A DNA stretch of 64,000 nt from an uncultured Bdellovibrionales bacterium (GCA_964509425.1 CAZDWZ010000011.1:35429-99428); one strand, 5' to 3'. Positions 490 through 59,134 are shown, numbered from the stretch's first letter. Numbers and translations: made by a program. The notes: a model not told the origin generated them from the sequence alone.

Positions 490-2658
490 CTAATACGCAA
501 CCAAAAACTCCATCGCGAGTTCGGAGCGGGGAGTTTCAAGCGCCTTAAGCGCCGCCTTCGCCCGCGCGAAAAGTGGCTCGATGTTTCCTTCCATCGCACG
601 CATCGCAACATCGAAGAGCGCAGACTCTGCATGTCCATACAGCGAGGTGAGTTTCCGCGAGCCGACTACTTCGCCTGCGAGGACACGGACCCAAAAGTCC
701 TGGTCTTCAAGACTCTCGTCCAAAAATCCAAGCATGGAAGTGGGAATGGCGTCGAGAAAACCGGTGCTCCCCAAAATATCTCGGTGGTAGAGAAAGCCCT
801 GTGCGGTAATGTGATCGATGAGCGCTTGAAATGCTTCGTCTCCCGGCTGCGAGAGCCGGAAAAGCGCGTGGGCGGAATTCACCGATACCGGCCGCTTTGA
901 GGAGCTGAGCTGCTGGAGAAGCACCGGTTTTGATTTCGCCGTTCCAAACTTCGCGAGAACGGCAGCCGCGTTCTGGAGGCGATTGTCATCAGTCTCGTCT
1001 GTTAATACCTTGATCAGCGTATCTTCGGCCGCTGGAGAGATATCCTTTCCGGAGAGAAGGGCCGACATCGCGTTGTTTCTCACGCTCGGATCGGGATCGC
1101 TCAGACCCTTTTCAGTATCCGGAACGTCGCTCGCTAATTTGAATTCGTAGATTGCGGCGTAGCCATTGGCGCGGTCTGTGACGGTGCTGGATGCAAGAAG
1201 CCTCTGAATGGCAGGCACCGCCTTGTCGGTCGGGAAAGGACTTACGTCCTTTAATGTGCGCAAAGCTGACGTAGACTCTGCGAGATCGGGTTTCGCCACA
1301 ACCTGCAACACGGAGTTTATGGCTTCGGGTGTGCCGATCTTCGAAAGCGCGAGGAGTGCGCAGGGGTGGCAGTCGTCTTTCTGTTTGAGAAGTGCGCTGA
1401 GCTTGGGAACGAGAGGGGCAGCAGCCGGGCCGATGGTTCCGGCTATATGCGACACGCTCTTTCGCAAATCGAGCGAAGGGTCATCGAGCAGCTTCTCAAA
1501 AATGGGAATCGCCTTCGGCAGATCCTTCTCGGGGATTCCGCCGGGAATGACACCGAGCATGTAGAGTGCCCGCGTTCGTGTTTTTTCATTTCCCGTCGGG
1601 AGCGCTTCGAGAAGATGGGGCACCGCGCGGCTCGCTACGGGTCCGATTTTCTTCAGCAACGGCTGCATCGTGTCGCCGTAGTGAATCGAGAGATCGCCGA
1701 GCTTTTCCCAAATCGGTGCTGCGACGCTCGATTCGAGCTCCGCCAGCTTCTGGAGGCTTTCAGGGGTGTCGATGCCCTTTAACGCGAGCGCAACCGCTTC
1801 CTGGTCTTCCACATCCACCGTCGGAAATTTTGATATCGCCGGAAGCGCCGAAGCTGCAGGCGATCCGATCTGCCCCAGCGAATTCAGTGCTGTCCGGCGA
1901 ATTCCGGGTTCGTCGCTTTCTAGCGCGTGAATCAGGGCAGTGACACCCTCGGGAGCACGAATCTTCCCGAGCGCGTAGGCTGCGCACTGCTTGCACATAT
2001 CGTAGTCATATCCCCCGTCCAATATGCGACTGAGCTCCGGCACTGCCGAGCGGGAGGCCGGCCCGATGCGACCCAAAACCGCAATCGCGATCTTTCGTAC
2101 TTCAGGGCTCGAATCTGCCATCGCCTTCCGAAGAGTCGGCACGGCGGCTGCGGCCTCATCCCAGAGCGCGCCAATCATATAGATGGCAAAGCTCCGATCG
2201 CTCGCAGCGGATTTTTTCTCGACGCGTGCGAGGAGCCAATCGAGATGCTCACGTCCGAACTGCCGAATCGCAGCTTTCGCTTCAATGTTCGGGGCGATCC
2301 GGAGTAGAGCGAGTGCATCCTCCCATTCTGTTTCCGGTCCACTCCGAAGCCGCTCGATAAAGACCGCTACGTCCGCCGCCGAAGGTAAACCAATCTGATT
2401 GACGGCTTGCGTGGCTTCGGCCGCAATAAATGGATCCTCCTCATTCGCGATTCGAATGAGCGCCGGGAGCGCAGATGATGCGCGCTGTCTCATTCCGCCG
2501 AGCGCCTTAATCGCTGCCACCCGTTTATCGGTGTCAGCGACCTTCAGTTGTTTGAGCAGTGCTTCGACGCTTTGTGAGTTTTCTTGAGCGATCGCCGAGA
2601 TCGAAGGGGCGAAGAGAAGGAGCGCCAAGAAGAGTCGCTGAATCTGAAAAATCCTCAT
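490..2658 (-). CDS. HEAT-repeat (PBS-lyase-like) protein, secreted
   Basis: 745-aa ORF. Probable start is the internal Met of MRIFQIQRLFLALLLFAPSISAIAQ (signal peptide). Repeated ~30-aa helical units with A(L/I)xxLGxIG-type motifs typical of HEAT/PBS lyase repeats. Confidence 0.55.
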   Translation of the reverse strand: MRIFQIQRLFLALLLFAPSISAIAQENSQSVEALLKQLKVADTDKRVAAIKALGGMRQRASSALPALIRIANEEDPFIAAEATQAVNQIGLPSAADVAVFIERLRSGPETEWEDALALLRIAPNIEAKAAIRQFGREHLDWLLARVEKKSAASDRSFAIYMIGALWDEAAAAVPTLRKAMADSSPEVRKIAIAVLGRIGPASRSAVPELSRILDGGYDYDMCKQCAAYALGKIRAPEGVTALIHALESDEPGIRRTALNSLGQIGSPAASALPAISKFPTVDVEDQEAVALALKGIDTPESLQKLAELESSVAAPIWEKLGDLSIHYGDTMQPLLKKIGPVASRAVPHLLEALPTGNEKTRTRALYMLGVIPGGIPEKDLPKAIPIFEKLLDDPSLDLRKSVSHIAGTIGPAAAPLVPKLSALLKQKDDCHPCALLALSKIGTPEAINSVLQVVAKPDLAESTSALRTLKDVSPFPTDKAVPAIQRLLASSTVTDRANGYAAIYEFKLASDVPDTEKGLSDPDPSVRNNAMSALLSGKDISPAAEDTLIKVLTDETDDNRLQNAAAVLAKFGTAKSKPVLLQQLSSSKRPVSVNSAHALFRLSQPGDEAFQALIDHITAQGFLYHRDILGSTGFLDAIPTSMLGFLDESLEDQDFWVRVLAGEVVGSRKLTSLYGHAESALFDVAMRAMEGNIEPLFARAKAALKALETPRSELAMEFLVAY

Positions 2659-2981
2659 CTCGGCTCCGCAAAAGTGCTGTTTTGCCTGGATCGGCTTTCG
2701 ATGTTTCGGGCCCGTAAGTCGATTCAAAATTGCTGGAGAATAGACGCTGACGAGAGGGCGAATTTAGCGGCTCACGTGAGCAAACTGACTACTTCTGTTT
2801 GCACGGCCCTCGCTGATTTGACGCTTCTGTAAGACTGCCGTCCGGGACTCCATCCATAATGTTTTTCGGAGACAGGAGATCGGAAGTGTTGTTTTGGACG
2901 AGGTTATTGCTGAATTCTGCTAAAAATCGCCCGGATAGAGGAACTTGTGAAGTCGGCACCTTTGAGCGAAAGCGTTGAGGG

Positions 2982-6452: not shown

Positions 6453-7787
6453 TCAGATCAGCGCCGCGATCGGTTTCCCGCCGTCCACGAGGTACTGCGG
6501 GCGGCCGCCGCTGTCGCGGAACTGCGTGTCCACCGGGATGCCCATCGCGTAGAGCACGGTCGCGACCAGATCGCTCGGCGTCACGGGGTTTAACTTCGGG
6601 TACTCAGCCTTGGCGCTCGACTCACCGACTACGACACCGCCTTGCAGACCACCGCCGGCCACCATCAGCGAGCTGAGCTGCGGCCAGTGGTCACGTCCGG
6701 CGGTGCCGTTGATCCGCGGCGTGCGGCCAAACTCGCCGGTGACGATCACCATCGTCTCCTCGAGCAGTCCGCGCTGATCGAGGTCGTCGATGAGCGCCGC
6801 CACCGCGCTGTCGAGCTGCGGCCCGAGCTGCTTGAACCCGTCCACCAGTCCGCCGTGCATGTCCCAGCCCCCGAAGTGGAGGGACACGTACTTCGCGCCG
6901 CCCTCGATCAGCCGGCGCGACAACACGAGCTGGTCGCCGATCGTCGTCCGGCCGTAGCGGTCGCGAAGCCGCGGATCCTCGGCCGACAGGTTGAACACGT
7001 TCCCGACATCTCGAGTCAGCGCGCCGAACGCCTGATCGGCGAATCCGTCCATGGCCGCCGCGACGCCGGTCTGGTCCACCTCCTTTCGCATGCTGTCGAA
7101 CGACGTGAGCAGCGTGCGGCGATCGCTCAGCCTCGGAACCGTCACGTTCAGTCGGAGGTTGGCCCGAGCTTCCCCTCGCCCGTTGAACGCTCCGAAGTTC
7201 GCGCCGAGCCACGCCGGACCTCCGGCGTAGATGTCGTCCTGCGCGACGTAGGTGGGAACCCCGCTCGGCGAGCTGGCCCCGTAGTAGCGCGAGATCATCG
7301 AGCCGATCGACGGCCAGATCGGCGGCAGGTTGTTGTCGGCCTGAGCGTGGTTACGCCCGGTCATGAGCCAGTGCGTCCCTCCACTGTGACCCGAGTTGCC
7401 GTGGGTCAGCGAGCGGACGACGGCGAGCTTCGGCATGATCCGGGCGAGCTTGGTGAACGACTTCCCCAGAGTGATCCCCGGAACCGACGTCGGTGTTTCC
7501 CCCGTCATGCTCCGGAACTCCGCGGGCGCGGTCATCTTCGGATCCCACGTCTCGACGTGGCTGGGCCCGCCGCCCAGCCAGATGGTGATGACCCCCTTCG
7601 CTTTGCCGAACGTGGTGCTGCGGTTGCCCGGCGAGTCCGCCGGAGGTGCCGCACGTGTGGTTTGCCCGAACCAGTCGGGCAGGCCGAGACCGAGGATGCC
7701 TGTCGAGCCGAACGCGAGGAAGTTTCGTCGCGTCGAGCCGTCGCAGGTCCTTCCGCCGGTTCTCGCCGGAAGTAGGAACGTGAACAT
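6453..7787 (-). CDS. DUF1501 family protein (sulfatase-like fold) with twin-arginine signal
   Basis: TRRNFLAFGSTGILGLGL TAT-type signal. Motifs WLGGGPSHVETWDPK and TGEFGRTPRINGTAGRDHW are characteristic of DUF1501. Start set at the internal ATG (MFTFLL). The gene is ~63% GC. Confidence 0.8.
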   Translation of the reverse strand: MFTFLLPARTGGRTCDGSTRRNFLAFGSTGILGLGLPDWFGQTTRAAPPADSPGNRSTTFGKAKGVITIWLGGGPSHVETWDPKMTAPAEFRSMTGETPTSVPGITLGKSFTKLARIMPKLAVVRSLTHGNSGHSGGTHWLMTGRNHAQADNNLPPIWPSIGSMISRYYGASSPSGVPTYVAQDDIYAGGPAWLGANFGAFNGRGEARANLRLNVTVPRLSDRRTLLTSFDSMRKEVDQTGVAAAMDGFADQAFGALTRDVGNVFNLSAEDPRLRDRYGRTTIGDQLVLSRRLIEGGAKYVSLHFGGWDMHGGLVDGFKQLGPQLDSAVAALIDDLDQRGLLEETMVIVTGEFGRTPRINGTAGRDHWPQLSSLMVAGGGLQGGVVVGESSAKAEYPKLNPVTPSDLVATVLYAMGIPVDTQFRDSGGRPQYLVDGGKPIAALI

Positions 7788-8117
7788 GGTACGGTTGCCC
7801 TCGTAGGGTGATGATTGGAATTCCTTTCCGATCCTTCTGCCTCCTTGTGAACACCACGCGAGACGCAAGCGGTCTTCACAAGAGCTGCAGAGCATTTCGT
7901 CTTTTCGTTTGAGGCGTAAAAAAGAGCGAGAACGGCCGGCTGGGCCGGTCGCATCAAAGTCTATGCGATCTTGGGAGCGAAAGTCTTGGAGTTTTTTTGT
8001 TGGAAGTAAGAATATGGAACGAGATAAAACTTCAGAGGCCTCGGCCCGAAGCATTCGTGTTTCCGCTTCCAATCTGAATTTCACCCGCAATCAAGATGAA
8101 AGCGGCTCCGTGTGGAG

Positions 8118-52616: not shown

Positions 52617-53243
52617 ATGAAACTCGAAGTCTGGCTGGCTTTCGTCGCTGTTTGCACCTTGGTCAGTATCTCTCCCGGTCCTGGCGCAGTCTCGAGCATG
52701 AGTAATTCTCTAAGCTACGGTTTCGGCCGTGGACTCATCAACGTTCTCGGACTTCAATGCGCACTCCTCATTCATCTAACGTTCCTCGCGCTTGGACTCG
52801 GAGCGCTCTTTGCAACTTCGGAAGTCGCCTTTGCTCTTCTGAAGTACGCGGGAGCTGCATACCTGATCTATCTCGGGATCAAGAAGTGGACGACGGAGGG
52901 AGGATTTAATCTTTCGAAGACAGAACGACTTCAGCTCCCGGCGAAAACATTATTTCTCCGGGGTCTCGGCGTGAACCTCACGAATCCGAAGTCGATGGTC
53001 TTCTTTGGAGCATTGCTGCCGCAATTCATTGACCCAGCCGCGCCGCAGCTCCTGCAGTTTGCGATCCTGGCGGTAACAATCGTGCTGATAGACGGCCTGG
53101 TGATGGGTGCCTACGGATTTCTCGCGTCCAGCGTCCGCGGCTTCTTCGAGGATGCCCGGCGGATGAGAATTGCAAACCGTGCGTTCGGCAGCCTGTTTAT
53201 GATCGCCGGGTTTGCGCTTCTGGCCGCCAAACGAAAGGCTTAG
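52617..53243 (+). CDS. LysE/RhtB family amino-acid efflux translocator
   Basis: MKLEVWLAFVAVCTLVSISPGPGAVSSMSNSLSYGFGRGL is the canonical LysE N-terminus (S/TPGP motif). Six TM helices. Confidence 0.75.
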   Translation: MKLEVWLAFVAVCTLVSISPGPGAVSSMSNSLSYGFGRGLINVLGLQCALLIHLTFLALGLGALFATSEVAFALLKYAGAAYLIYLGIKKWTTEGGFNLSKTERLQLPAKTLFLRGLGVNLTNPKSMVFFGALLPQFIDPAAPQLLQFAILAVTIVLIDGLVMGAYGFLASSVRGFFEDARRMRIANRAFGSLFMIAGFALLAAKRKA

Positions 53244-53337
53244 TGCTCGAAACTTTCAGCGCGAATCCCAAAGATGCAAGAGGATTTCTATAAAGACGAG
53301 AATGGAACTGTTGGGCTCTCGAGCGTCCTGGAGATTG

Positions 53338-53787
53338 TTACTTCGTCACAAACTGCTTTCCTTCACGCTTCACGAGTGCGGCGATATCCTGATCTCGTTC
53401 AACGTAGCCTTTACTCATACCGTCCTTCCCATAATAGTAGACATAGGCCTGATCGCTACCATTCGAAATGAGCTTATAACTACGGCCGTACGGATCGAGC
53501 GGAATCTTGGCGAGAAAATCGGGGACGAGCTCGTCGAATGCTTTCGGTAGCCGCCCATGGACGTTGCCGAACCGGGCCACGGTCCGGGCGAGTTCAACCA
53601 CCGTTCGCCCCGCAGCAGCTTTCTCCTCGAGGTCCGCAGCTCCTTCCGGACTCCTGGCACGAGTCGTTGAAAAAGCAAGGAACAGTAAAAAAATGATCGC
53701 AAACCCGATCACGACGGTCACCGGCCGATCGAGGGGAGTTCCAACTTTTGGCTCCGGTTCGAGTGGTTTAGTGTCTAACGATTCCAT
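53338..53787 (-). CDS. type II secretion pseudopilin GspG-like domain protein (atypical N-terminus)
   Basis: AKIPLDPYGRSYKLISNG...YVYYYGKDG resembles the T2SS-G C-terminal DPWGxxYxY motif. One TM helix but no canonical GFTLIE prepilin motif. Confidence 0.4.
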   Translation of the reverse strand: MESLDTKPLEPEPKVGTPLDRPVTVVIGFAIIFLLFLAFSTTRARSPEGAADLEEKAAAGRTVVELARTVARFGNVHGRLPKAFDELVPDFLAKIPLDPYGRSYKLISNGSDQAYVYYYGKDGMSKGYVERDQDIAALVKREGKQFVTK

Positions 53788-54247
53788 AATCGATTTATCG
53801 GCAGGGGCGCGCTTCGAGTCTCGTGCGCATTCGCACAATTAGGCACTTTTTTCGCGAAACGGCGCAGTTTTATTGAAACCGGCGGATATTTTGACGCAAT
53901 CAACTCATTGCAAATACGCAAATACATCAGTTTCCTCGGCAGAAGGCCGAGGCACGTAAGTATGTGATTCGCAATTGGTCAGAGGCGATTCACGTACCAA
54001 CATCCTTGAGGTTGTCGCATCTTGACGATTCTTCGGCACTCTCAAAGCTTCGTCGGAAGCCAGAAAACTTCAATTGCTCGTTACACAAAATTGCAGAGCG
54101 ATTGTTTAGCGAGTGCAAAACGGTTGCTCAGCAGATCGCGATTCGAAATTGAATTGATCAGAGTTTGCGATCAACTTTCTTGTGTGTCACGCGGACGAGT
54201 CTCCGCGTCATATTTCCTTGAGAACTGCAATTTCATCGAGGGCACAG

Positions 54248-57094
54248 ATGACAATCACATCAAATCAGAGTGGTGCTGGCATCCAACAAACATCATCGGA
54301 CGATGGTCGAGATGTTTTGCTTTTCCCGTCTCTGGGTCGAGAGTTACTCAACCAGCTCGAGAATACGAAATTTGTGATGACGCTTCCGGAGCCGCTGGAG
54401 GATGGACCTCGAGGCGATGAGCCGAAGCGAGACGAGCCACGGCGTGATGAACCGAAGAAGGACGAACCGAGGCGTGGAGACGTTCGACAATTTCTCGAGA
54501 GAATGGCACGCGATCCATTGTCGATGATCGAGGATGTTCTAAAAAACGGTCCTCAGAAAGCGGCGACGCTGCTGTTCGACACTCTCTCAGTGAAATCGCC
54601 GGAAACAGCGGCGCTTGTTTTTCGCTCGTTGCCTCCGCTCACTGGTACGTCGGCCGGTGATGCGATGATCGTGCTCGCTTGCGTGCGACATCCGGACGTC
54701 GCGAAGCGTTTCATCGACAGCATTCCTCCGGGCGCCGCCACGGGGTTGGGAGATGCCGAGCTTCTCGCCTACATCAAGGCGCACGTAGAGATAGCACCGG
54801 CGATGCAGATTCTTCTTGACGATAAGTTTTCGGGCGGAAAAGGCAAACTCACCGACAAGGAGCGGGATATCATCGCGAAGTCGATGTCTTCGGCTTCCCA
54901 GGAAGCGGCGATGTTCCTTGCTGAGCGCGTTCTTGAGCGAGCGCCCCTTGAAGCGGGAGTGCTCCTCCGAAATCCAGAGGCGCTGAGCGGACATGCACGC
55001 GGGGCTTCGATCTTCGCGAATGTCGCTCGATATGCACCCGAAGCAGTCACTGCGGAAGTTTTGAAGCCGCTTACGGCGGAGTTGAGGAACGCTGTTCTCG
55101 AGATTCGTGACGCGACGCTGTTCCTGAAGAAACTCGACCCGCGGCTTGTCGTGGGAGGTGACGCCTTGCCGATGGACGAAGTCGCGCGAGGGAAGGTCCG
55201 GGACCTTGTACTCAAGGCCGATGTGTCGAAGCTGCCGGATGCCGTACTTCACCGAAGCGTGCAAATGTTGGGGAAAATTGCGCCTGACATCGCGGCAGAG
55301 TTGGGATTCCGAAACGCGAGCCGATTCAAGAGCCCGGATGCGATGGCCGTGCTCGCGGAGCTGACGATTTATAATCCAGAAGGGGCGCTCGACAAAGCAA
55401 AAGAATTTCTCAAGCAAAAGCACATGTTGGGAAAGATCGTGGTTGCCGAGGCAATGTTCTATTTCGCGCTCATGAACCCTGAAGCTGCGACACGGCGGTG
55501 CGACGATCTTATTGCCGGCCCGCTTGCGGACGATAAGCGCACGGGAGATCGGTTGAGACAGAACGTGGGACTTGCAAAGGCATTCCGCCTGACGTTGGGA
55601 AACGATAAATTAGAAGATCCGGTAAAGACGAGAGCGATGATCGAAGGAGTAGAAAAACTCGGACCTACGGTACGAAATGAATTTCTGAGCATCTTTGGTC
55701 CGTTGGCTCCGCACATCCTGATTGAAAATCCCTCGCTTCTTAAAATTCCGGAAATGCTCAGAATCGCCGCAGAGTTCGCCGCGAAGGATCCGGCTTTTGT
55801 CATCAGCCGATTTGCTGAGCATAAAAACGAGCAGCTTCTCCGCACCGCAGCATTCGCGCTCGGAGCCGAAAAATCCTTCGGCCCTGAAGCTCCGCTTGAA
55901 GAAGTGCCGCGAGAGATCGCCGCATTTAAGCTCGATGACAAGGCGAGGGCTCTCGCGGTCGAAAGTTTCAAGGCAGGGCTCGCCGCCGGAAAGGACATTT
56001 ATTTGCTTCGAGGAACCCCGCCGCCAAAAGACGGAACTCCGGGGATGCTCATCGCCGAGCCGGCAATCCGGCGTGTTGCAGAGATTAAAGCCGCCGATCT
56101 TCTTTTCCCCGCCACGAATGGGAAGCTCGTGCCGTTTGAGAAATTATCCGATGCCGAGCGTGCCTCTTGGACCCCCCGCGCCATTTTAGAATTGAAGATG
56201 GCTGTTTCGAGAAACTTGCCGGAAGGCACGACGAAGGTCACCGCGGACCTGGTACAGGCGGGATGCAAAACTCTTTTTGAAGCTGCCGGGAAATACGATT
56301 CGATTGCCGTGGCAAAAGGGAGAGACGTGTACGTTCTTGCGAACAGCGATAATTGGCGGGAAAATTTGAAGGGTCTAAACATGCCGCCATGGGTGAGCTT
56401 CTGGGCCGAAAAATCTCTTGGTGAGCCGAACGCCTTTGCCGGAAAGGAACTGATGAAGTCGTTAAAGGCTCAAGAAGCGCGCTCGGTGTCTCGGTTCTCT
56501 CCTGCGGTTACCGATCTGAGTCCATCAGTGGCGAAGAACAATTTTCTCGCGACGTTTGAGACAGCGAAAATCAAATCGACATTCATCTTCGCCGGTCATG
56601 GCTCTCCGACCGGGCTTGCGTCGACGGGAGGAGACGTAGTGAACGGGCTCCCGACAAAGGGTGAAGCGGAGATTGCTCCAGGTGAGCTCGCGGAAGTTCT
56701 CATACGACGTGCCGAAGCATTGAAGGCGGGCAAGGTGTCTGTTGAGGATCGGGATCTGGTGATCCTCGATAGCTGCTTTTCGCAGGACTACATGCGCGCG
56801 GTGTTCTCAAGAATCAGCGAGAAATGCACCGATCCTGAAGTGCTCGCCCGGTTGCCCATCTTTGCCGTTGCTTCCGAGCACGGTCATTTATCATACGGGA
56901 GGGCGACAAAGGATCGGGATTCGTTCGTCGGATATATGTTCCGGGGCACCGGAACGACGACGCTAAAAGATCTCAGATTCTTAATTCTCCCGACTTCGAA
57001 CCCCGGTCTTTTCTTTCTCGAACCCGGAAAGTCAGGAGAGGTCCCGCGAATGTTTCAGTTGGGAAGCGATGTGCGGCCGAGGAACTATGCGTAA
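54248..57094 (+). CDS. large alpha-helical repeat protein with C-terminal caspase-like (clan CD) His/Cys dyad domain
   Basis: GAGGG RBS before the internal ATG. N-terminal KRDEPRRDEPKKDEPRR low-complexity tract. ~700 aa of ARM/HEAT-like helices. C-terminal STFIFAGHGSP ... 58 aa ... LVILDSCFSQ matches the hydrophobic-strand-HG / hydrophobic-strand-(D/A/S)C pattern of peptidase clan CD (caspase/CHAT/gingipain). Confidence 0.55.
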   Translation: MTITSNQSGAGIQQTSSDDGRDVLLFPSLGRELLNQLENTKFVMTLPEPLEDGPRGDEPKRDEPRRDEPKKDEPRRGDVRQFLERMARDPLSMIEDVLKNGPQKAATLLFDTLSVKSPETAALVFRSLPPLTGTSAGDAMIVLACVRHPDVAKRFIDSIPPGAATGLGDAELLAYIKAHVEIAPAMQILLDDKFSGGKGKLTDKERDIIAKSMSSASQEAAMFLAERVLERAPLEAGVLLRNPEALSGHARGASIFANVARYAPEAVTAEVLKPLTAELRNAVLEIRDATLFLKKLDPRLVVGGDALPMDEVARGKVRDLVLKADVSKLPDAVLHRSVQMLGKIAPDIAAELGFRNASRFKSPDAMAVLAELTIYNPEGALDKAKEFLKQKHMLGKIVVAEAMFYFALMNPEAATRRCDDLIAGPLADDKRTGDRLRQNVGLAKAFRLTLGNDKLEDPVKTRAMIEGVEKLGPTVRNEFLSIFGPLAPHILIENPSLLKIPEMLRIAAEFAAKDPAFVISRFAEHKNEQLLRTAAFALGAEKSFGPEAPLEEVPREIAAFKLDDKARALAVESFKAGLAAGKDIYLLRGTPPPKDGTPGMLIAEPAIRRVAEIKAADLLFPATNGKLVPFEKLSDAERASWTPRAILELKMAVSRNLPEGTTKVTADLVQAGCKTLFEAAGKYDSIAVAKGRDVYVLANSDNWRENLKGLNMPPWVSFWAEKSLGEPNAFAGKELMKSLKAQEARSVSRFSPAVTDLSPSVAKNNFLATFETAKIKSTFIFAGHGSPTGLASTGGDVVNGLPTKGEAEIAPGELAEVLIRRAEALKAGKVSVEDRDLVILDSCFSQDYMRAVFSRISEKCTDPEVLARLPIFAVASEHGHLSYGRATKDRDSFVGYMFRGTGTTTLKDLRFLILPTSNPGLFFLEPGKSGEVPRMFQLGSDVRPRNYA

Positions 57095-57197
57095 ATCTTC
57101 GCGGGAATGATCCTCCCCGGGATTTTACACCGAGAAGTAGGGGCGTTTCATTTCCGCGTGCGAGCGGCGCACGCGGATGGGTGCTAATCGGGCTGCA

Positions 57198-57325
57198 TAC
57201 GAAGCCTTAAAGCACCTGTACGAACTCGCGAGGAGAACTCCTGCGCGACTCTACGAGTGCTTAAGGCACTTGTATTTTGAAGCCGCCGGGGTCTGCGAAG
57301 CCTTAAAGCACTTGTATATTGTCTG
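57198..57325. repeat. three imperfect ~45-bp tandem repeats with core G(A/T)GCCTTAA(A/G)GCAC(C/T)TGTA
   Basis: gaagccttaaagcacctgta / gagtgcttaaggcacttgta / gaagccttaaagcacttgta. Each contains a near-palindromic CTTAAG core. Lies in the convergent intergenic region between the 970-aa gene and the PEP-hydrolase-like gene. Confidence 0.6.
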
Positions 57326-57698
57326 CGCGGAGATTCTGACGCTGATTTTTTTGCTGATGGGGGAAACTTTTGCTGCTTCCTGCCGATTTGATCCTTGTGG
57401 ATGGAGCTTTCAGGGGGGAATGGTTAGAGATTGATTGTTCCAAGCTGGCGAGGCACATCTTTTGAACGCTTTGTAAAACTTGCCAGCGGCCGCCCGGGTT
57501 GAATCGGGTCGGCCCTCCGCTTTTGTGGCACTCGCCAGGCTTGTAACACGCCACTCTGGAACATTTCGGGCGTGTCACACGTCAGGCGGTCTCTCTCGTC
57601 AGACCAGCGTCGTCGCGGTCGTCAATGGGACGCGTTCATACGATCAAGAGTCGCTGTGTCATCATATCGTCGGTCATCGAACCCTCGGAGCTGCGGCA

Positions 57699-58535
57699 TC
57701 ATACCTTCAGCTCGCGCCGGATCGCCCTGAACTTCTTCACCTGTTCGGTGAGGGCGATCTCGCAAGGCAATCGTTCGATCGAACTTGCGCCGTAGAACCC
57801 GCCGACGATCGGGACGCGGTCAAGGACGTACTTCGCGTCGTCCGGCATCGAGATGACGCCGCCGTGGCAGAGGACGATGACGTCCCCTCGCTCCTCCCGC
57901 GCTGCCTCGGCGATCGCCCGCACTTGGGCGACGGCCCCGTCGAGCGTCACACGAGCCTCCGCACCGATGCTCCCTCCGGTGGTGAGTCCGAGGTGGGCCA
58001 CGATCACGTCGGCCCCCGCCCGCGTCATGCGTTTTGCCTCGCTGGCGTTAAACGCATACGGACTCGTGAACATGTCGGCCTCGTGCGCGGCCGCGATCCA
58101 GTCCACCTCCTTGTCGTACCCGAAACCGGTCTTCTCGAGATCGACACGGAAGTTCCCGTCAATCAACCCCACCGTCGGATAGTTCTGGATGCCGCTGTAC
58201 CCGAGCGCCTTTAGCCTCGGGATGAAGGTGTGCGGTGGATAGCGCGGGTCGACCCCGTGCACGCCCGCGAGAACCGGGGTCTTCGGCGCGGCGGTGATGA
58301 TCTCCGCAGCCATCTCGAGGACGAGCGCGTTCGCATCGCAGAATGACAACATCCCGGCTAAACTCCCGAGCCCCGCCATGCGGAAGCGGCCGGAGTTGTA
58401 GACGATCAGCAGGTCGATCCCGCCCACCTCGGCGAACTTCGCGCTCAGGCCGATGCCTGCGCCGCCGCCGATGATCGGCTCGTCGCGTTCGATCTTCGCC
58501 CGGAGACGGGCGAGGATGTCGGTCCGCTTGAACAT
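57699..58535 (-). CDS. phosphoenolpyruvate-hydrolase-like TIM-barrel protein (PF09370-like)
   Basis: Full-length similarity by eye to the 'TIM-barrel signal transduction / PEP hydrolase' family: IIGGGAGIGLSAKFAEVGGIDLLIVYNSGRFRMAG...GVHG...ADVIVAHLGLTTGG. Start at the internal ATG. Confidence 0.6.
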   Translation of the reverse strand: MFKRTDILARLRAKIERDEPIIGGGAGIGLSAKFAEVGGIDLLIVYNSGRFRMAGLGSLAGMLSFCDANALVLEMAAEIITAAPKTPVLAGVHGVDPRYPPHTFIPRLKALGYSGIQNYPTVGLIDGNFRVDLEKTGFGYDKEVDWIAAAHEADMFTSPYAFNASEAKRMTRAGADVIVAHLGLTTGGSIGAEARVTLDGAVAQVRAIAEAAREERGDVIVLCHGGVISMPDDAKYVLDRVPIVGGFYGASSIERLPCEIALTEQVKKFRAIRRELKV

Positions 58536-59134
58536 GTCGACTCCTGGAACTGGGTAATGGTTTGCCGGCCGGCTGGCGGGCAGGCGCTCCGAAAGGCGTT
58601 CGGAAGACACCTCTAAAAACGCGAGACGCATTCTTAGAGATGTCTTCGAAATACCAAGGAACGAGACGAAGCAGAAATCGTGTCGATAGAACCTGAAAAA
58701 AGATGTGCTCTCGTATCGAAAATAGAAATGAGAGTAGAGATTCTTCCCCTATGCGAAGCTGTATTGATGAAAGGGACGCTGAATACTATGCCTCCGTGCG
58801 GAAACACAAATCGACCTTGAGAATTTTCGATTTCTTTAAATGCGTTTGATACTCGCGGTGAACATCTGTGAGCAAATTGTATTCAACATCATGACTTAGC
58901 AATACGGAGGGACAGCGACGAACTTCGAGAACGGAGTTCACTGCAGATCACCGGCGCACGCGTGGAGGAGCGCAGACCTGTAATGATCGGATTCCACTCG
59001 GTGAATCCCCTAGAATATGCTCTTTGAGAGCTCCGAATTCGCAAACTCCGGAAAGATTATTGACCTATGCGGGTCCAACTCCGCTAATAAACGAAGCGGC
59101 TTAGGAAATCGGCCGTCATTCGTCGCGGAGCCTC

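What the first reader, a model, noticed from the sequence alone, without database searches (positions are those of the whole stretch)
54248..57094. ~950-aa helical-repeat protein ending in a caspase-like (clan CD) His-Cys dyad
The C-terminal ~150 aa contain FIFAGHGSP, then 58 aa, then LVILDSCFSQ. That is a hydrophobic beta-strand ending in HG, followed by a hydrophobic strand ending in (D/S)C. This order, His before Cys, and the motifs are diagnostic of the caspase / CHAT / gingipain / clostripain fold. The domain is fused to ~700 aa of ARM/HEAT-like helices and an N-terminal (K/R)(R/K)DEP(R/K) x4 low-complexity tract. Caspase-like proteases fused to large repeat scaffolds are recurrent effectors in bacterial conflict and signalling systems. 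The gene lies next to an orphan GspG-like gene and a tandem-repeat site.
Basis: partly seen in the sequence, partly recalled or inferred. Interest (0 to 1): 0.55.

Follow-up and report, generated by a model that had tools for sequence, protein, structure and literature searches.

The report
New legumain-like cysteine protease family
The gene encodes a 948-residue soluble protein whose last ~340 residues fold like legumain and caspases and keep an invariant His-Cys pair, which makes it a member of a previously unannotated family of probable cysteine proteases found mostly in ultra-small (CPR) bacteria.

Summary
ORF 54248-57094 (+) encodes 948 aa with FIFAGHGSP (H784) and LVILDSCFSQ (C843), plus a 4x DEP[KR][RK] tract. 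The main interpretation holds.

- **Annotation:** Pfam, NCBIfam, PADLOC and a sequence search of the PDB give no match.
- **Relatives:** an exhaustive HMMER search found one full-length orthologue (43% identity) and about 57 distant relatives that share only the C-terminal ~300-340 residues.
- **Dyad:** H784 and C843 are the only invariant columns across 59 sequences, and 69/69 in a larger set.
- **Register:** His and Cys follow strands β3 and β4. Profile alignments place them on legumain H148/C189 and PIGK C206.

It is therefore a new sequence family of clan CD, structurally nearest C13, and probably an active endopeptidase. Acidic residues at the three S1-determining positions suggest Arg/Lys specificity; this is inferred, not shown.

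Not supported: ARM/HEAT repeats (no repeat or profile signal, and the region is shared only with the orthologue), and a conflict-system context (no conserved neighbour in 25 loci, no defence hits).

Typed relatives are mostly Peregrinibacteria/Gracilibacteria. The window itself looks planctomycetal.

The parts
54248..57094 (+). Complete gene (948 aa plus stop). An alternative upstream GTG lies at 54182. A GAGGG Shine-Dalgarno-like site lies at 54238-54242.
   Evidence: Identical to database protein P0001. Collinear with orthologue P0003 at 42.6% identity over residues 62-942.
54248..54415 (+). N-terminal ~56 residues. They are polar, with no signal peptide and no TM segment, and are poorly conserved with the orthologue.
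   Evidence: The hydropathy scan finds no TM segment in this protein and almost none across the family. Identity to P0003 over residues 1-50 is 20%.
54416..54475 (+). Low-complexity tract DEPKR-DEPRR-DEPKK-DEPRR (residues 57-76). It is probably a flexible charged linker and is specific to this lineage.
   Evidence: TRF finds period 30 x2 at 54416-54476. Translation confirmed. The tract is absent (a gap) in P0003.
54476..56080 (+). Orphan all-alpha region (residues ~77-611). It is shared only with the single orthologue. Its proposed role as a recognition or regulatory scaffold is inferred.
   Evidence: Single-sequence AF2 predicts helices throughout at low confidence. There is no Pfam hit, no PDB profile hit and no internal repeat. 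Identity to P0003 is 26-52% per 50-residue window.
56081..57091 (+). Conserved clan-CD peptidase module (residues 612-948), the region modelled.
56081..56317 (+). N-terminal extension of the module (residues 612-690): a β-hairpin plus three helices ahead of β1. It contains the nearly invariant R655 (ARNL motif; nt 56210-56212).
   Evidence: pLDDT is 89-96 over this segment. R655 is Arg in 66/67 sequences.
56324..56350 (+). Strand β1 (DVYVLA, residues 693-698) followed by the L1/α1 acidic residue D701. This position is Glu in about 95% of the family, and it is a candidate S1-pocket residue.
   Evidence: DSSP on the model. Position counts. S1 determinants in clan CD lie on L1/α1, L4 and L5 (PMC4357240).
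56582..56608 (+). Strand β3 plus the catalytic His motif FIFAGHGSP. H784 is at nt 56597-56599, flanked by G783 and G785.
   Evidence: H784 is invariant. It aligns to legumain H148. A Gly next to the catalytic His is a clan CD hallmark (PMC4357240).
56756..56785 (+). Strand β4 plus the catalytic Cys motif LVILDSCFSQ. C843 is at nt 56774-56776. D841 at position C-2 (loop L4) is a candidate S1 residue.
   Evidence: C843 is invariant. It aligns to legumain C189 and to PIGK C206.
56855..56887 (+). Strand β5 plus the L5 motif (PIFAVASEHGH; family consensus PIxIGxSEYGQ). E877 (nt 56876-56878) is essentially invariant.
   Evidence: E877 is Glu in 68/69 sequences, and the next residue is aromatic in 64/69. 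L5 carries S1 determinants and a conserved aromatic residue in clan CD (PMC4357240).
56996..57058 (+). C-terminal conserved block SNPGLFFLEP...MFQ (β6 hairpin; family consensus SNPxxYxP...Q).
   Evidence: Alignment A2. P926 is Pro in 64 sequences and Q937 is Gln in 61. Strands at 920-925 and 934-938 in the model.

Best explanation
The gene encodes a stand-alone, soluble, multidomain protein. It has no signal peptide and no TM segment. Its C-terminal ~340 residues form a cysteine peptidase domain of clan CD that belongs to a previously unannotated sequence family. Structurally the domain is closest to family C13 (legumain, PIGK), followed by the metacaspases.

Shown:
- The fold is that of clan CD.
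- His784 and Cys843 are invariant. They sit just after β3 and β4, in the register of legumain H148/C189.
- Gly flanks the His.
- The module has family-specific conserved blocks: ARNL, GRNVxxxAHxE, RFG, TFxFDGHGxP, DIxIxxSCF, PIxIGxSEYGQ and SNPxxYxP..Q.

Inferred:
- The domain is an active, site-specific endopeptidase. Cys843 would be the nucleophile and His784 the general acid/base.
- The three positions that set P1 specificity in clan CD are acidic here: D701 (Glu in about 95% of the family) on L1/α1, D841 on L4, and invariant E877 on L5. This parallels MALT1 D365/D462/E500, so cleavage after Arg or Lys is predicted.
- The ~530-residue orphan α-helical N-terminal region and the charged DEP[KR][RK] linker would position or gate substrates, or regulate the protease. 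Large helical regions do this in separase and TPR-CHAT. This region is lineage-specific.
- The ~80-residue extension before β1, with its near-invariant Arg655, may be a built-in regulatory or pseudo-substrate element, as in TbMCA2 or the RgpB prodomain.
For: Sequence family:
- Exhaustive phmmer found 59 proteins, and all but one match only residues ~600-948.
- H784 and C843 are the only invariant columns, and 69/69 in a larger set.
- E877 is 68/69, R655 66/67, E/D701 66/68, G783 64/69 and G785 67/69.

Structure:
- The AF2 model has pLDDT 87.2 and pTM 0.89. Strands run in the order β1 (693-698), β2, β3 (777-782, then H784), a small β-section, α3, β4 (837-841, then C843), β5 (871-874, then E877) and a β6 hairpin.
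- This matches the clan CD description in PMC4357240.
- Foldseek: the top 27 PDB hits are all caspases or MALT1, E 2e-5 to 1e-3.

Register:
- The PDB profile search pairs C843 with PIGK C206.

Gene status and location:
- The gene is real. It has a collinear orthologue at 42.6% identity over ~880 residues.
- It is soluble: no TM segment or signal-like stretch.
- It is stand-alone. It is flanked by a divergent and a convergent gene, and no neighbour is conserved across 25 loci.
Against: - There is no biochemical evidence of proteolysis.
- Sequence-level similarity to any characterised peptidase is not significant: Pfam and NCBIfam give nothing, PIGK scores E 0.64 and legumain scores hhalign E 0.05.
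The Arg/Lys prediction therefore rests only on linear position relative to secondary-structure elements.
- D841 (position C-2) is variable across the family: S, D, A and G.
- The role of the N-terminal region is conjecture. It has no detectable homology, and its only model is low confidence.
- C13 relatives include transamidases and ligases, so hydrolysis is not the only possible chemistry.
Confidence: 0.62

Rival explanations
1. Delivered effector or toxin. The conserved protease module is a payload, and the variable N-terminal regions are targeting or secretion parts. Episymbiotic or predatory bacteria would use it against host or prey cells, and the window organism would have acquired a divergent copy.
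For: - HMM-confirmed family members in named genomes are 7 Peregrinibacteria/Peribacteria, 1 Gracilibacteria, 1 Patescibacteria and 1 Bdellovibrionales. I know these lineages as episymbiotic or predatory.
- N-terminal regions are unrelated between members.
- Tandem paralogues occur in L017 and L055.
- A subset shares a short N-terminal x[RK][LF][ILV][FYA] motif.
- None has a Sec signal, as is typical of contact-dependent effectors.
- Precedent: the Rickettsia effector RARP-2 is a clan CD protease fused to repeats (PMC11077975).
Against: - No secretion-system, immunity or chaperone gene recurs next to it in 25 loci.
- Neighbours are housekeeping genes.
- The taxon sample is biased by the motif used for the scan.
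- The window gene lacks the N-terminal motif.
- The adjacent GspG-like gene is divergent, borderline (E 3.4e-4) and not conserved elsewhere.
- No match in viral contigs.
Confidence: 0.15
2. Transpeptidase or ligase rather than hydrolase. Like the C13 enzymes GPI-transamidase (PIGK) and plant peptide asparaginyl ligases, the Cys-acyl intermediate would be resolved by an amine nucleophile, attaching or cyclising a protein substrate.
For: - The only non-trivial sequence hit in the PDB is PIGK, around the catalytic Cys.
Against: - Legumain, a hydrolase, is the top hit. Metacaspases and caspases score almost as high.
- There are no partner subunits and no membrane anchor, unlike the GPI-T complex.
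- Ligase-determining features were not and cannot be assessed here.
Confidence: 0.08
3. Effector protease of a defence or conflict system, in the manner of CHAT or caspase effectors of CBASS, type III CRISPR or NLR-like systems. A sensor encoded elsewhere would activate it.
Against: - No PADLOC model matches.
- No Pfam CHAT, SAVED, TPR or NACHT domain is found in any of the 59 members.
- No cyclase, CRISPR or NTPase neighbour occurs in the window or in 25 loci.
- CHAT structures are more distant than C13 and C14 structures.
Confidence: 0.07
4. Catalytically dead scaffold (pseudo-protease), like the Raptor caspase-like domain or c-FLIP.
Against: His, Cys, the flanking Gly residues and the L1/L5 acidic residues are invariant or nearly so across ~70 sequences that are otherwise ~20-25% identical. 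That is the signature of a maintained active site.
Confidence: 0.05

Closest known systems
Legumain / asparaginyl endopeptidases and peptide asparaginyl ligases (MEROPS C13, Pfam PF01650)
   Same: - Same order and placement of the His-Gly and Cys residues after β3 and β4.
- A local profile alignment pairs H784/C843 with H148/C189, with similar spacing and a similar helix between them.
   Different: - No significant sequence similarity: no PF01650 hit, hhalign E 0.05.
- Legumain's S1 residues Arg44/His45/Asp231 (PMC4357240) are replaced here by an acidic set.
- The protein is cytoplasmic and not secreted.
- It has an ~80-residue N-terminal extension instead of a C-terminal LSAM prodomain.
- It is fused to a ~530-residue helical region.
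GPI-anchor transamidase PIGK/GPI8 (C13)
   Same: - The only non-trivial PDB sequence hit. The segment I(S/T)xxELAxA...IIDxC aligns on PIGK 171-217, with Cys on C206.
   Different: - The hit is not significant (E 0.64).
- PIGK is a membrane-complex subunit that acts as a transamidase. This protein has no TM segment and no partner genes.
Metacaspases / paracaspase MALT1 (C14B)
   Same: - Acidic residues at the L1/α1, L4 and L5 positions, as in MALT1 D365/D462/E500, which specify Arg (PMC4357240).
- An ordered N-terminal segment precedes β1, as in TbMCA2.
   Different: - No PF00656 hit.
- No evidence for the metacaspase 8-stranded sheet or its Ca2+ site.
- The conserved motifs differ.
Separase (C50) and TPR-CHAT/Csx29 (CHAT, PF12770)
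   Same: Overall architecture: a large N-terminal α-helical region followed by a C-terminal clan CD protease domain.
   Different: - No sequence match.
- No pseudo-protease domain, TPR or CRISPR context was detected.
RARP-2 (MEROPS C123), Rickettsia type IV effector
   Same: A bacterial clan CD-like protease fused to a repeat or helical domain, with no Sec signal (PMC11077975; family list in PMC12445089).
   Different: [quoted passage not shown]
- No ankyrin repeats occur here.
- Sequence relationship was not tested, because no RARP-2 sequence was available to the tools.

Membership tests
Clan CD cysteine peptidases (caspase/haemoglobinase fold) | α/β fold with a central sheet of at least six strands (five parallel, one antiparallel) that is structurally similar to known clan members | tested here: met
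   [not shown]
Clan CD cysteine peptidases (caspase/haemoglobinase fold) | Catalytic dyad in the order His then Cys, at the C-terminal ends of β3 and β4 | tested here: met
   H784 lies 2 residues after strand 777-782, and C843 lies 2 residues after strand 837-841. Both are invariant. Their register matches legumain H148/C189 and PIGK C206.
Clan CD cysteine peptidases (caspase/haemoglobinase fold) | Conserved Gly adjacent to the catalytic His | tested here: met
   The motif is G783-H784-G785. G783 is Gly in 64/69 sequences and G785 in 67/69. The feature is stated in PMC4357240.
Clan CD cysteine peptidases (caspase/haemoglobinase fold) | His and Cys side chains juxtaposed in space | not testable with these tools
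   Model coordinates and structural alignments are not returned by the tools. Juxtaposition is inferred only from the fold match.
Clan CD cysteine peptidases (caspase/haemoglobinase fold) | Cys-dependent, P1-specific peptide-bond cleavage | not testable with these tools
   This requires biochemistry.
MEROPS C13 / Pfam Peptidase_C13 (legumain, GPI8) | Significant match to the family profile | tested here: not met
   The protein has no Pfam hit at E<=10. None of the 59 relatives hits PF01650 at E<=0.01. The profile against PDB C13 chains scores E 0.64-1.3.
MEROPS C13 / Pfam Peptidase_C13 (legumain, GPI8) | Zwitterionic Asn/Asp-specific S1 pocket (Arg44, His45, Ser216, Asp231 in legumain) | tested here: inconclusive
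   By linear position, the L1/α1 site carries D/E701 rather than Arg-His, and L5 carries invariant E877. No structural superposition was available to confirm that these positions are equivalent.
MEROPS C14 / Pfam Peptidase_C14 (caspases, metacaspases, paracaspases, orthocaspases) | Significant match to the family profile | tested here: not met
   No PF00656 hit in the protein or in any of the 59 relatives. The similarity is structural only.
CHAT domain proteases (PF12770) | Match to the CHAT profile, with the usual association with TPR/SAVED/CRISPR or other sensor modules | tested here: not met
   No PF12770, SAVED or TPR hit. No PADLOC hit. No such neighbours.
Separase (C50) | Match to Peptidase_C50, with a pseudo-protease domain preceding the active domain | tested here: not met
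   [not shown]
RARP-2 (MEROPS C123) | Sequence similarity to the RARP-2 N-terminal protease domain, with C-terminal ankyrin repeats | not tested
   No RARP-2 sequence or profile was available. The domain order is opposite and no Ank hit was found. Literature description.
ARM/HEAT α-solenoid repeats (N-terminal region) | Tandem ~40-residue helix-turn-helix repeats detectable by profile, by self-similarity or by structure | tested here: not met
   No HEAT or ARM Pfam hit at E<=10. No off-diagonal self-BLAST hits. No PDB profile hit. The only model is low confidence, all-alpha. HEAT repeats can be too divergent to detect, so an α-solenoid is not excluded.

The most novel reading that the evidence does not exclude
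The ~340-residue module defines a new MEROPS-level family of clan CD peptidases (consensus ARNL...GRNVxxxAHxE...TFxFDGHGxP...SCF...SEYGQ...SNPxxYxP). It would be a hallmark of episymbiotic or predatory bacteria (Peregrinibacteria, Gracilibacteria, Bdellovibrionales), with rare transfers to free-living phyla such as the planctomycete-like genome of this window. In this reading the enzymes are Arg/Lys-specific proteases. Their hypervariable N-terminal regions direct them to different targets, possibly in the host or prey cell. An internal invariant Arg (R655) acts as an autoinhibitory pseudo-substrate.
Probability: 0.18. Interest if true: 0.65.

Novelty: new variant of a known kind. Interest (0 to 1): 0.45.

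Why it matters
Clan CD holds only eight recognised families: C11, C13, C14, C25, C50, C80, C84 and C123 (PMC12445089). Each new family has brought a distinct specificity and activation mechanism.

This family has about 60 representatives at 50% identity, and none carries a Pfam, NCBIfam or PDB annotation. It sits structurally between legumain and the metacaspases, so it bears on how the C13 and C14 lineages diverged.

Its concentration in CPR bacteria matters because those genomes are tiny and mostly of unknown function. A large conserved protease there is a concrete, testable handle on their biology.

For this particular genome the practical result is modest. A 'hypothetical protein' can be re-annotated as a probable clan CD cysteine peptidase with catalytic residues H784 and C843.

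Tried and rejected
**Direct annotation of the protein gave nothing.**
- Pfam at E<=10 on the full length and on the C-terminal 231 aa.
- NCBIfam and PADLOC.
- phmmer against the PDB.
- tblastn against plasmids: only chance hits, E>=1.

**Searches that failed to reach relatives.**
- The word-indexed homology search returned only the protein itself.
- It returned nothing for the C-terminal domain or for the family profile.
- Only the exhaustive HMMER search found the family.

**Scans for close relatives of the whole protein.**
- Nothing in 185k species genomes or in JGI metagenomes.
- Exact-sequence look-ups of the window proteins found no contig on record.

**Structure work that did not help.**
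- The single-sequence AF2 model of the full length was unusable (pLDDT 44).
- The AFDB50 fold library was unavailable.
- The viral fold library gave only generic giant-virus caspase/clostripain-like hits.

**N-terminal region.**
- A profile of the two orthologues against the PDB gave nothing.
- Self-BLAST found no repeats.

**Other checks.**
- The family motif was not found in IMG/VR viral contigs.
- The promoter/terminator scan was at chance level.
- Rfam found nothing in 53000-59000.
- Literature searches for a prior description of such a family in CPR bacteria found none.

**Readings rejected.**
- Membership of C13, C14, CHAT or C50, because the profile tests were not met.
- A defence-system effector, because there is no context support.
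- A pseudo-enzyme, because the dyad is invariant.

**Weak lead not adopted.** Family genes lie next to aminoacyl-tRNA synthetase genes in 4 of ~21 independent loci. The synthetases and orientations differ, and such genes are dense in small genomes.
Full report
**1. The observation**

The ORF listing shows a single long ORF on the + strand, 54182(GTG)..57094. The ATG at 54248 is preceded by GAGGG at 54238-54242. It yields 948 aa, identical to a database protein, P0001, which comes from an NCBI contig of 149 kb.

- FIFAGHGSP is residues 779-787, with H784 at nt 56597-56599.
- LVILDSCFSQ is residues 837-846, with C843 at nt 56774-56776.
- 58 residues separate His and Cys.
- The low-complexity tract is DEPKR-DEPRR-DEPKK-DEPRR, residues 57-76, nt 54416-54475. 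TRF detects it as a 30-nt x2 repeat.

The neighbours are as described. A divergent, borderline T2SSG-like gene lies at 53338-53838 (-) (E 3.4e-4). A triple repeat lies downstream.

**2. No annotation, but a family exists**

None of the standard searches matches the protein:
- Pfam at E<=10, on the full length and on the last 231 aa.
- NCBIfam and PADLOC.
- phmmer against PDB sequences.
- tblastn against plasmids.

The word-indexed search of 5.8 billion proteins returned only the protein itself. It returned nothing for the C-terminal domain.

The exhaustive HMMER search of 1.84 billion cluster representatives, run with residues 80-948, found 59 proteins at E<=1e-3:
- P0003 (923 aa) is a collinear orthologue: 42.6% identity over residues 62-942. 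The gene is therefore real and under constraint along its whole length.
- The other ~57 proteins (E 7e-12 to 1e-3, 170-1150 aa) match only the C-terminal ~300-340 residues.

In the 59-sequence alignment the only invariant columns are H784 and C843. I added HMM-confirmed ORFs from genome loci and counted residues over 70 sequences:

| Position | Count |
|---|---|
| H784 | 69/69 |
| C843 | 69/69 |
| E877 | 68/69 |
| R655 | 66/67 |
| R692 | 66/67 |
| E/D701 | 66/68 |
| G783 | 64/69 |
| G785 | 67/69 |

The domain alignment A2 gives these consensus blocks: ARNL, LFxGRNVxxxAHxE, RFG, TFxFDGHGxPxG, I(S/T)xxELAxAxxxR, DIxIxxSCF, PIxIGxSEYGQxGxS and SNPxxYxP...Q.

None of the 59 members hits any clan CD Pfam family. 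The few Pfam hits are single weak ones in unrelated N-terminal regions.

**3. Fold**

The single-sequence AF2 model of the whole protein was unusable (pLDDT 44). It is nearly all-helical up to about residue 580.

With alignment A2 as the MSA, residues 612-948 gave a confident model: pLDDT 87.2, pTM 0.89, with 198 residues at pLDDT >=90. Its secondary structure, in protein numbering, runs as follows:
- A β-hairpin and three helices (612-690).
- β1 at 693-698 and β2 at 746-750.
- β3 at 777-782, followed by G-H784-G.
- A small β-section and helix α3.
- β4 at 837-841, followed by S-C843.
- β5 at 871-874, followed by S-E877.
- A terminal β-hairpin at 920-925 and 934-938.

This is the layout given for clan CD in McLuskey & Mottram 2015 (PMC4357240). 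That review describes a six-stranded sheet, a small β-section between β3 and α3, and the dyad at the C-terminal ends of β3 and β4.

Fold comparisons agree:
- Foldseek against the PDB: the top 27 hits are all caspases or MALT1, E 2e-5 to 1e-3.
- The viral library gave giant-virus clostripain- and caspase-like proteins.

**4. Register of the catalytic residues**

The family profile against PDB sequences gives only a marginal hit (E 0.64). It is to GPI-transamidase PIGK, and C843 falls exactly on the 'IIDTC' Cys206.

hhalign of A2 against it gives one local alignment (E 0.05, not significant alone). That alignment pairs H784 with H148 and C843 with C189.

I could not measure the His-Cys distance, because coordinates are not exposed. 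Juxtaposition is inferred from the fold match together with this register.

**5. Membership versus mechanism**

The clan CD features that could be tested are met: the fold, the His-then-Cys order, their placement after β3 and β4, and the Gly next to His. Family-level membership is not met for C13, C14, CHAT or C50, because there are no profile hits.

The best description is therefore a new sequence family of clan CD, structurally nearest C13. MEROPS currently lists eight families in the clan: C11, C13, C14, C25, C50, C80, C84 and C123 (PMC12445089). Relationship to C123/RARP-2 was not testable. Its domain order is the opposite of this protein's.

**6. Likely mechanism (inferred)**

Cys843 would be the nucleophile and His784 the general acid/base, as in the rest of the clan.

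According to PMC4357240, P1 specificity in clan CD comes from three regions: L1/α1, L4 and L5. Acidic residues at these sites in MALT1 (D365/D462/E500) specify Arg. Here the linear equivalents are:
- D701, which is Glu in about 95% of the family and lies immediately before helix α1.
- D841 at position C-2, which is variable in the family.
- E877, which is invariant, lies three residues after β5 and is followed by a conserved aromatic residue.

I therefore predict a basic P1 residue (Arg or Lys), with low-to-moderate confidence.

The ~80-residue ordered extension before β1 carries the near-invariant R655. It recalls the N-terminal segment of TbMCA2 that crosses the active site, and the RgpB prodomain Arg that occupies S1. 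A pseudo-substrate role is a hypothesis only.

The ~530-residue N-terminal region is shared only with P0003:
- No Pfam hit and no PDB profile hit.
- No internal repeats.

'ARM/HEAT-like' is therefore unproven. A recognition or regulatory role is proposed by analogy with separase and TPR-CHAT. The DEP[KR][RK] tract is an insertion absent from the orthologue, so it is probably just a linker.

**7. Context and distribution**

The gene stands alone. Its upstream neighbour is divergent, its downstream neighbour is convergent, and the intergenic gaps are ~410 and ~600 nt. The surrounding genes are unrelated to each other:
- AT3-SGNH acyltransferase
- YdjM
- an HTH protein
- LysE
- a PEP-hydrolase-like protein
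- an M50-like protein
- DUF6756
- BtpA

GC content is uniform.

A degenerate motif scan for T-F-x-F-D-G-H-G-x-P in the GTDB species genomes gave 29 matches. Ten of them are HMM-confirmed family genes: 7 Peregrinibacteria/Peribacteria, 1 Gracilibacteria, 1 'Patescibacteria group' and 1 Bdellovibrionales. The same scan gave 11 confirmed loci in metagenomes and none in viral contigs.

All-vs-all BLAST of 728 flanking ORFs from 25 loci found no conserved partner. The only recurrent neighbour class is aminoacyl-tRNA synthetases:
- LeuRS, twice.
- IleRS, once.
- ProRS, once.

That is 4 of ~21 independent loci, with different enzymes and orientations. I treat it as weak.

Other points on distribution:
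- Tandem paralogues occur in L017 and L055.
- No member has a signal peptide, and only two have a marginal hydrophobic segment.
- The window genome is probably planctomycetal, because it encodes DUF1501 and HEAT-repeat proteins. This is an inference.
- Its subfamily is rare. There is one orthologue, and nothing close in 185k species genomes or in JGI metagenomes.

**8. Verdict**

The repeat-scaffold and conflict-system framing is not supported.

The feature is a new variant of a known kind: an unannotated clan CD family. Interest is moderate. It is raised somewhat by the family's size, its complete lack of annotation and its concentration in CPR bacteria. It is limited by the absence of any functional context or unusual mechanism.

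Noticed in passing
window 57196-57321 (+), cores at 57206-57220, 57260-57274, 57302-57316: Three exact copies of a 15-nt core, CTTAARGCACYTGTA, lie 54 and 42 nt apart. They sit in the ~600-nt gap between the target gene and the convergent PEP-hydrolase-like gene. Only 0.12 copies are expected by chance in the window. The middle copy contains the near-palindrome GTGCTTAAGGCAC. There is no Rfam match. It may be an operator or a REP-like element.
   Followed up: partly
window 53338-53838 (-): This is the 'GspG-like' neighbour, 166 aa. It is only a borderline T2SSG match (E 3.4e-4, 21.1 bits against a cutoff of 21, C-terminal 45 residues). Reading the translation, it has one hydrophobic segment (VTVVIGFAIIFLLFLAF) and no obvious GFTLxE prepilin motif. 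It is not found next to family members elsewhere.
   Followed up: partly
L017:3-5044 (-) (Peribacteria MAG CAZYNU010000014.1); L055:1333-3980 (-): Two family genes lie in tandem in each of these loci. This indicates local paralogue expansion in some CPR genomes.
   Followed up: no
L003:6008-9851; L058:3223-6489; L060:2-4358; L061:1963-7482: Family genes lie directly next to aminoacyl-tRNA synthetase genes: ProRS, LeuRS, LeuRS and IleRS. That is 4 of ~21 independent loci, where about 1 would be expected in ~1-Mb genomes. The enzymes and orientations differ, so this may be chance or synteny.
   Followed up: partly
proteins P0018, P0020, P0023, P0027, P0034, P0039, P0041, P0053 (N-termini): Eight of 58 family members, seven of them ~900 aa or longer, carry a short N-terminal motif x[RK][LF][ILV][FYA] within residues 4-28, followed by a charged, disordered stretch. 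None has the motif in a control window at residues 101-145. The window protein has only a loose look-alike (RDVLLF, residues 21-26). This could be a targeting or docking signal.
   Followed up: partly
window 490-2727 (-), 6453-8090 (-): A 745-aa multi-HEAT-repeat protein (HEAT_2 E 2e-46) and a DUF1501 protein (E 4e-81). This gene content is typical of Planctomycetota/PVC genomes, and it is the basis for my guess at the source organism.
   Followed up: no
method note: The word-indexed homology search missed the whole family, even when given the family profile. The exhaustive HMMER search found 59 members. 'Orphan' calls based on the indexed search alone would have been wrong here.
   Followed up: yes
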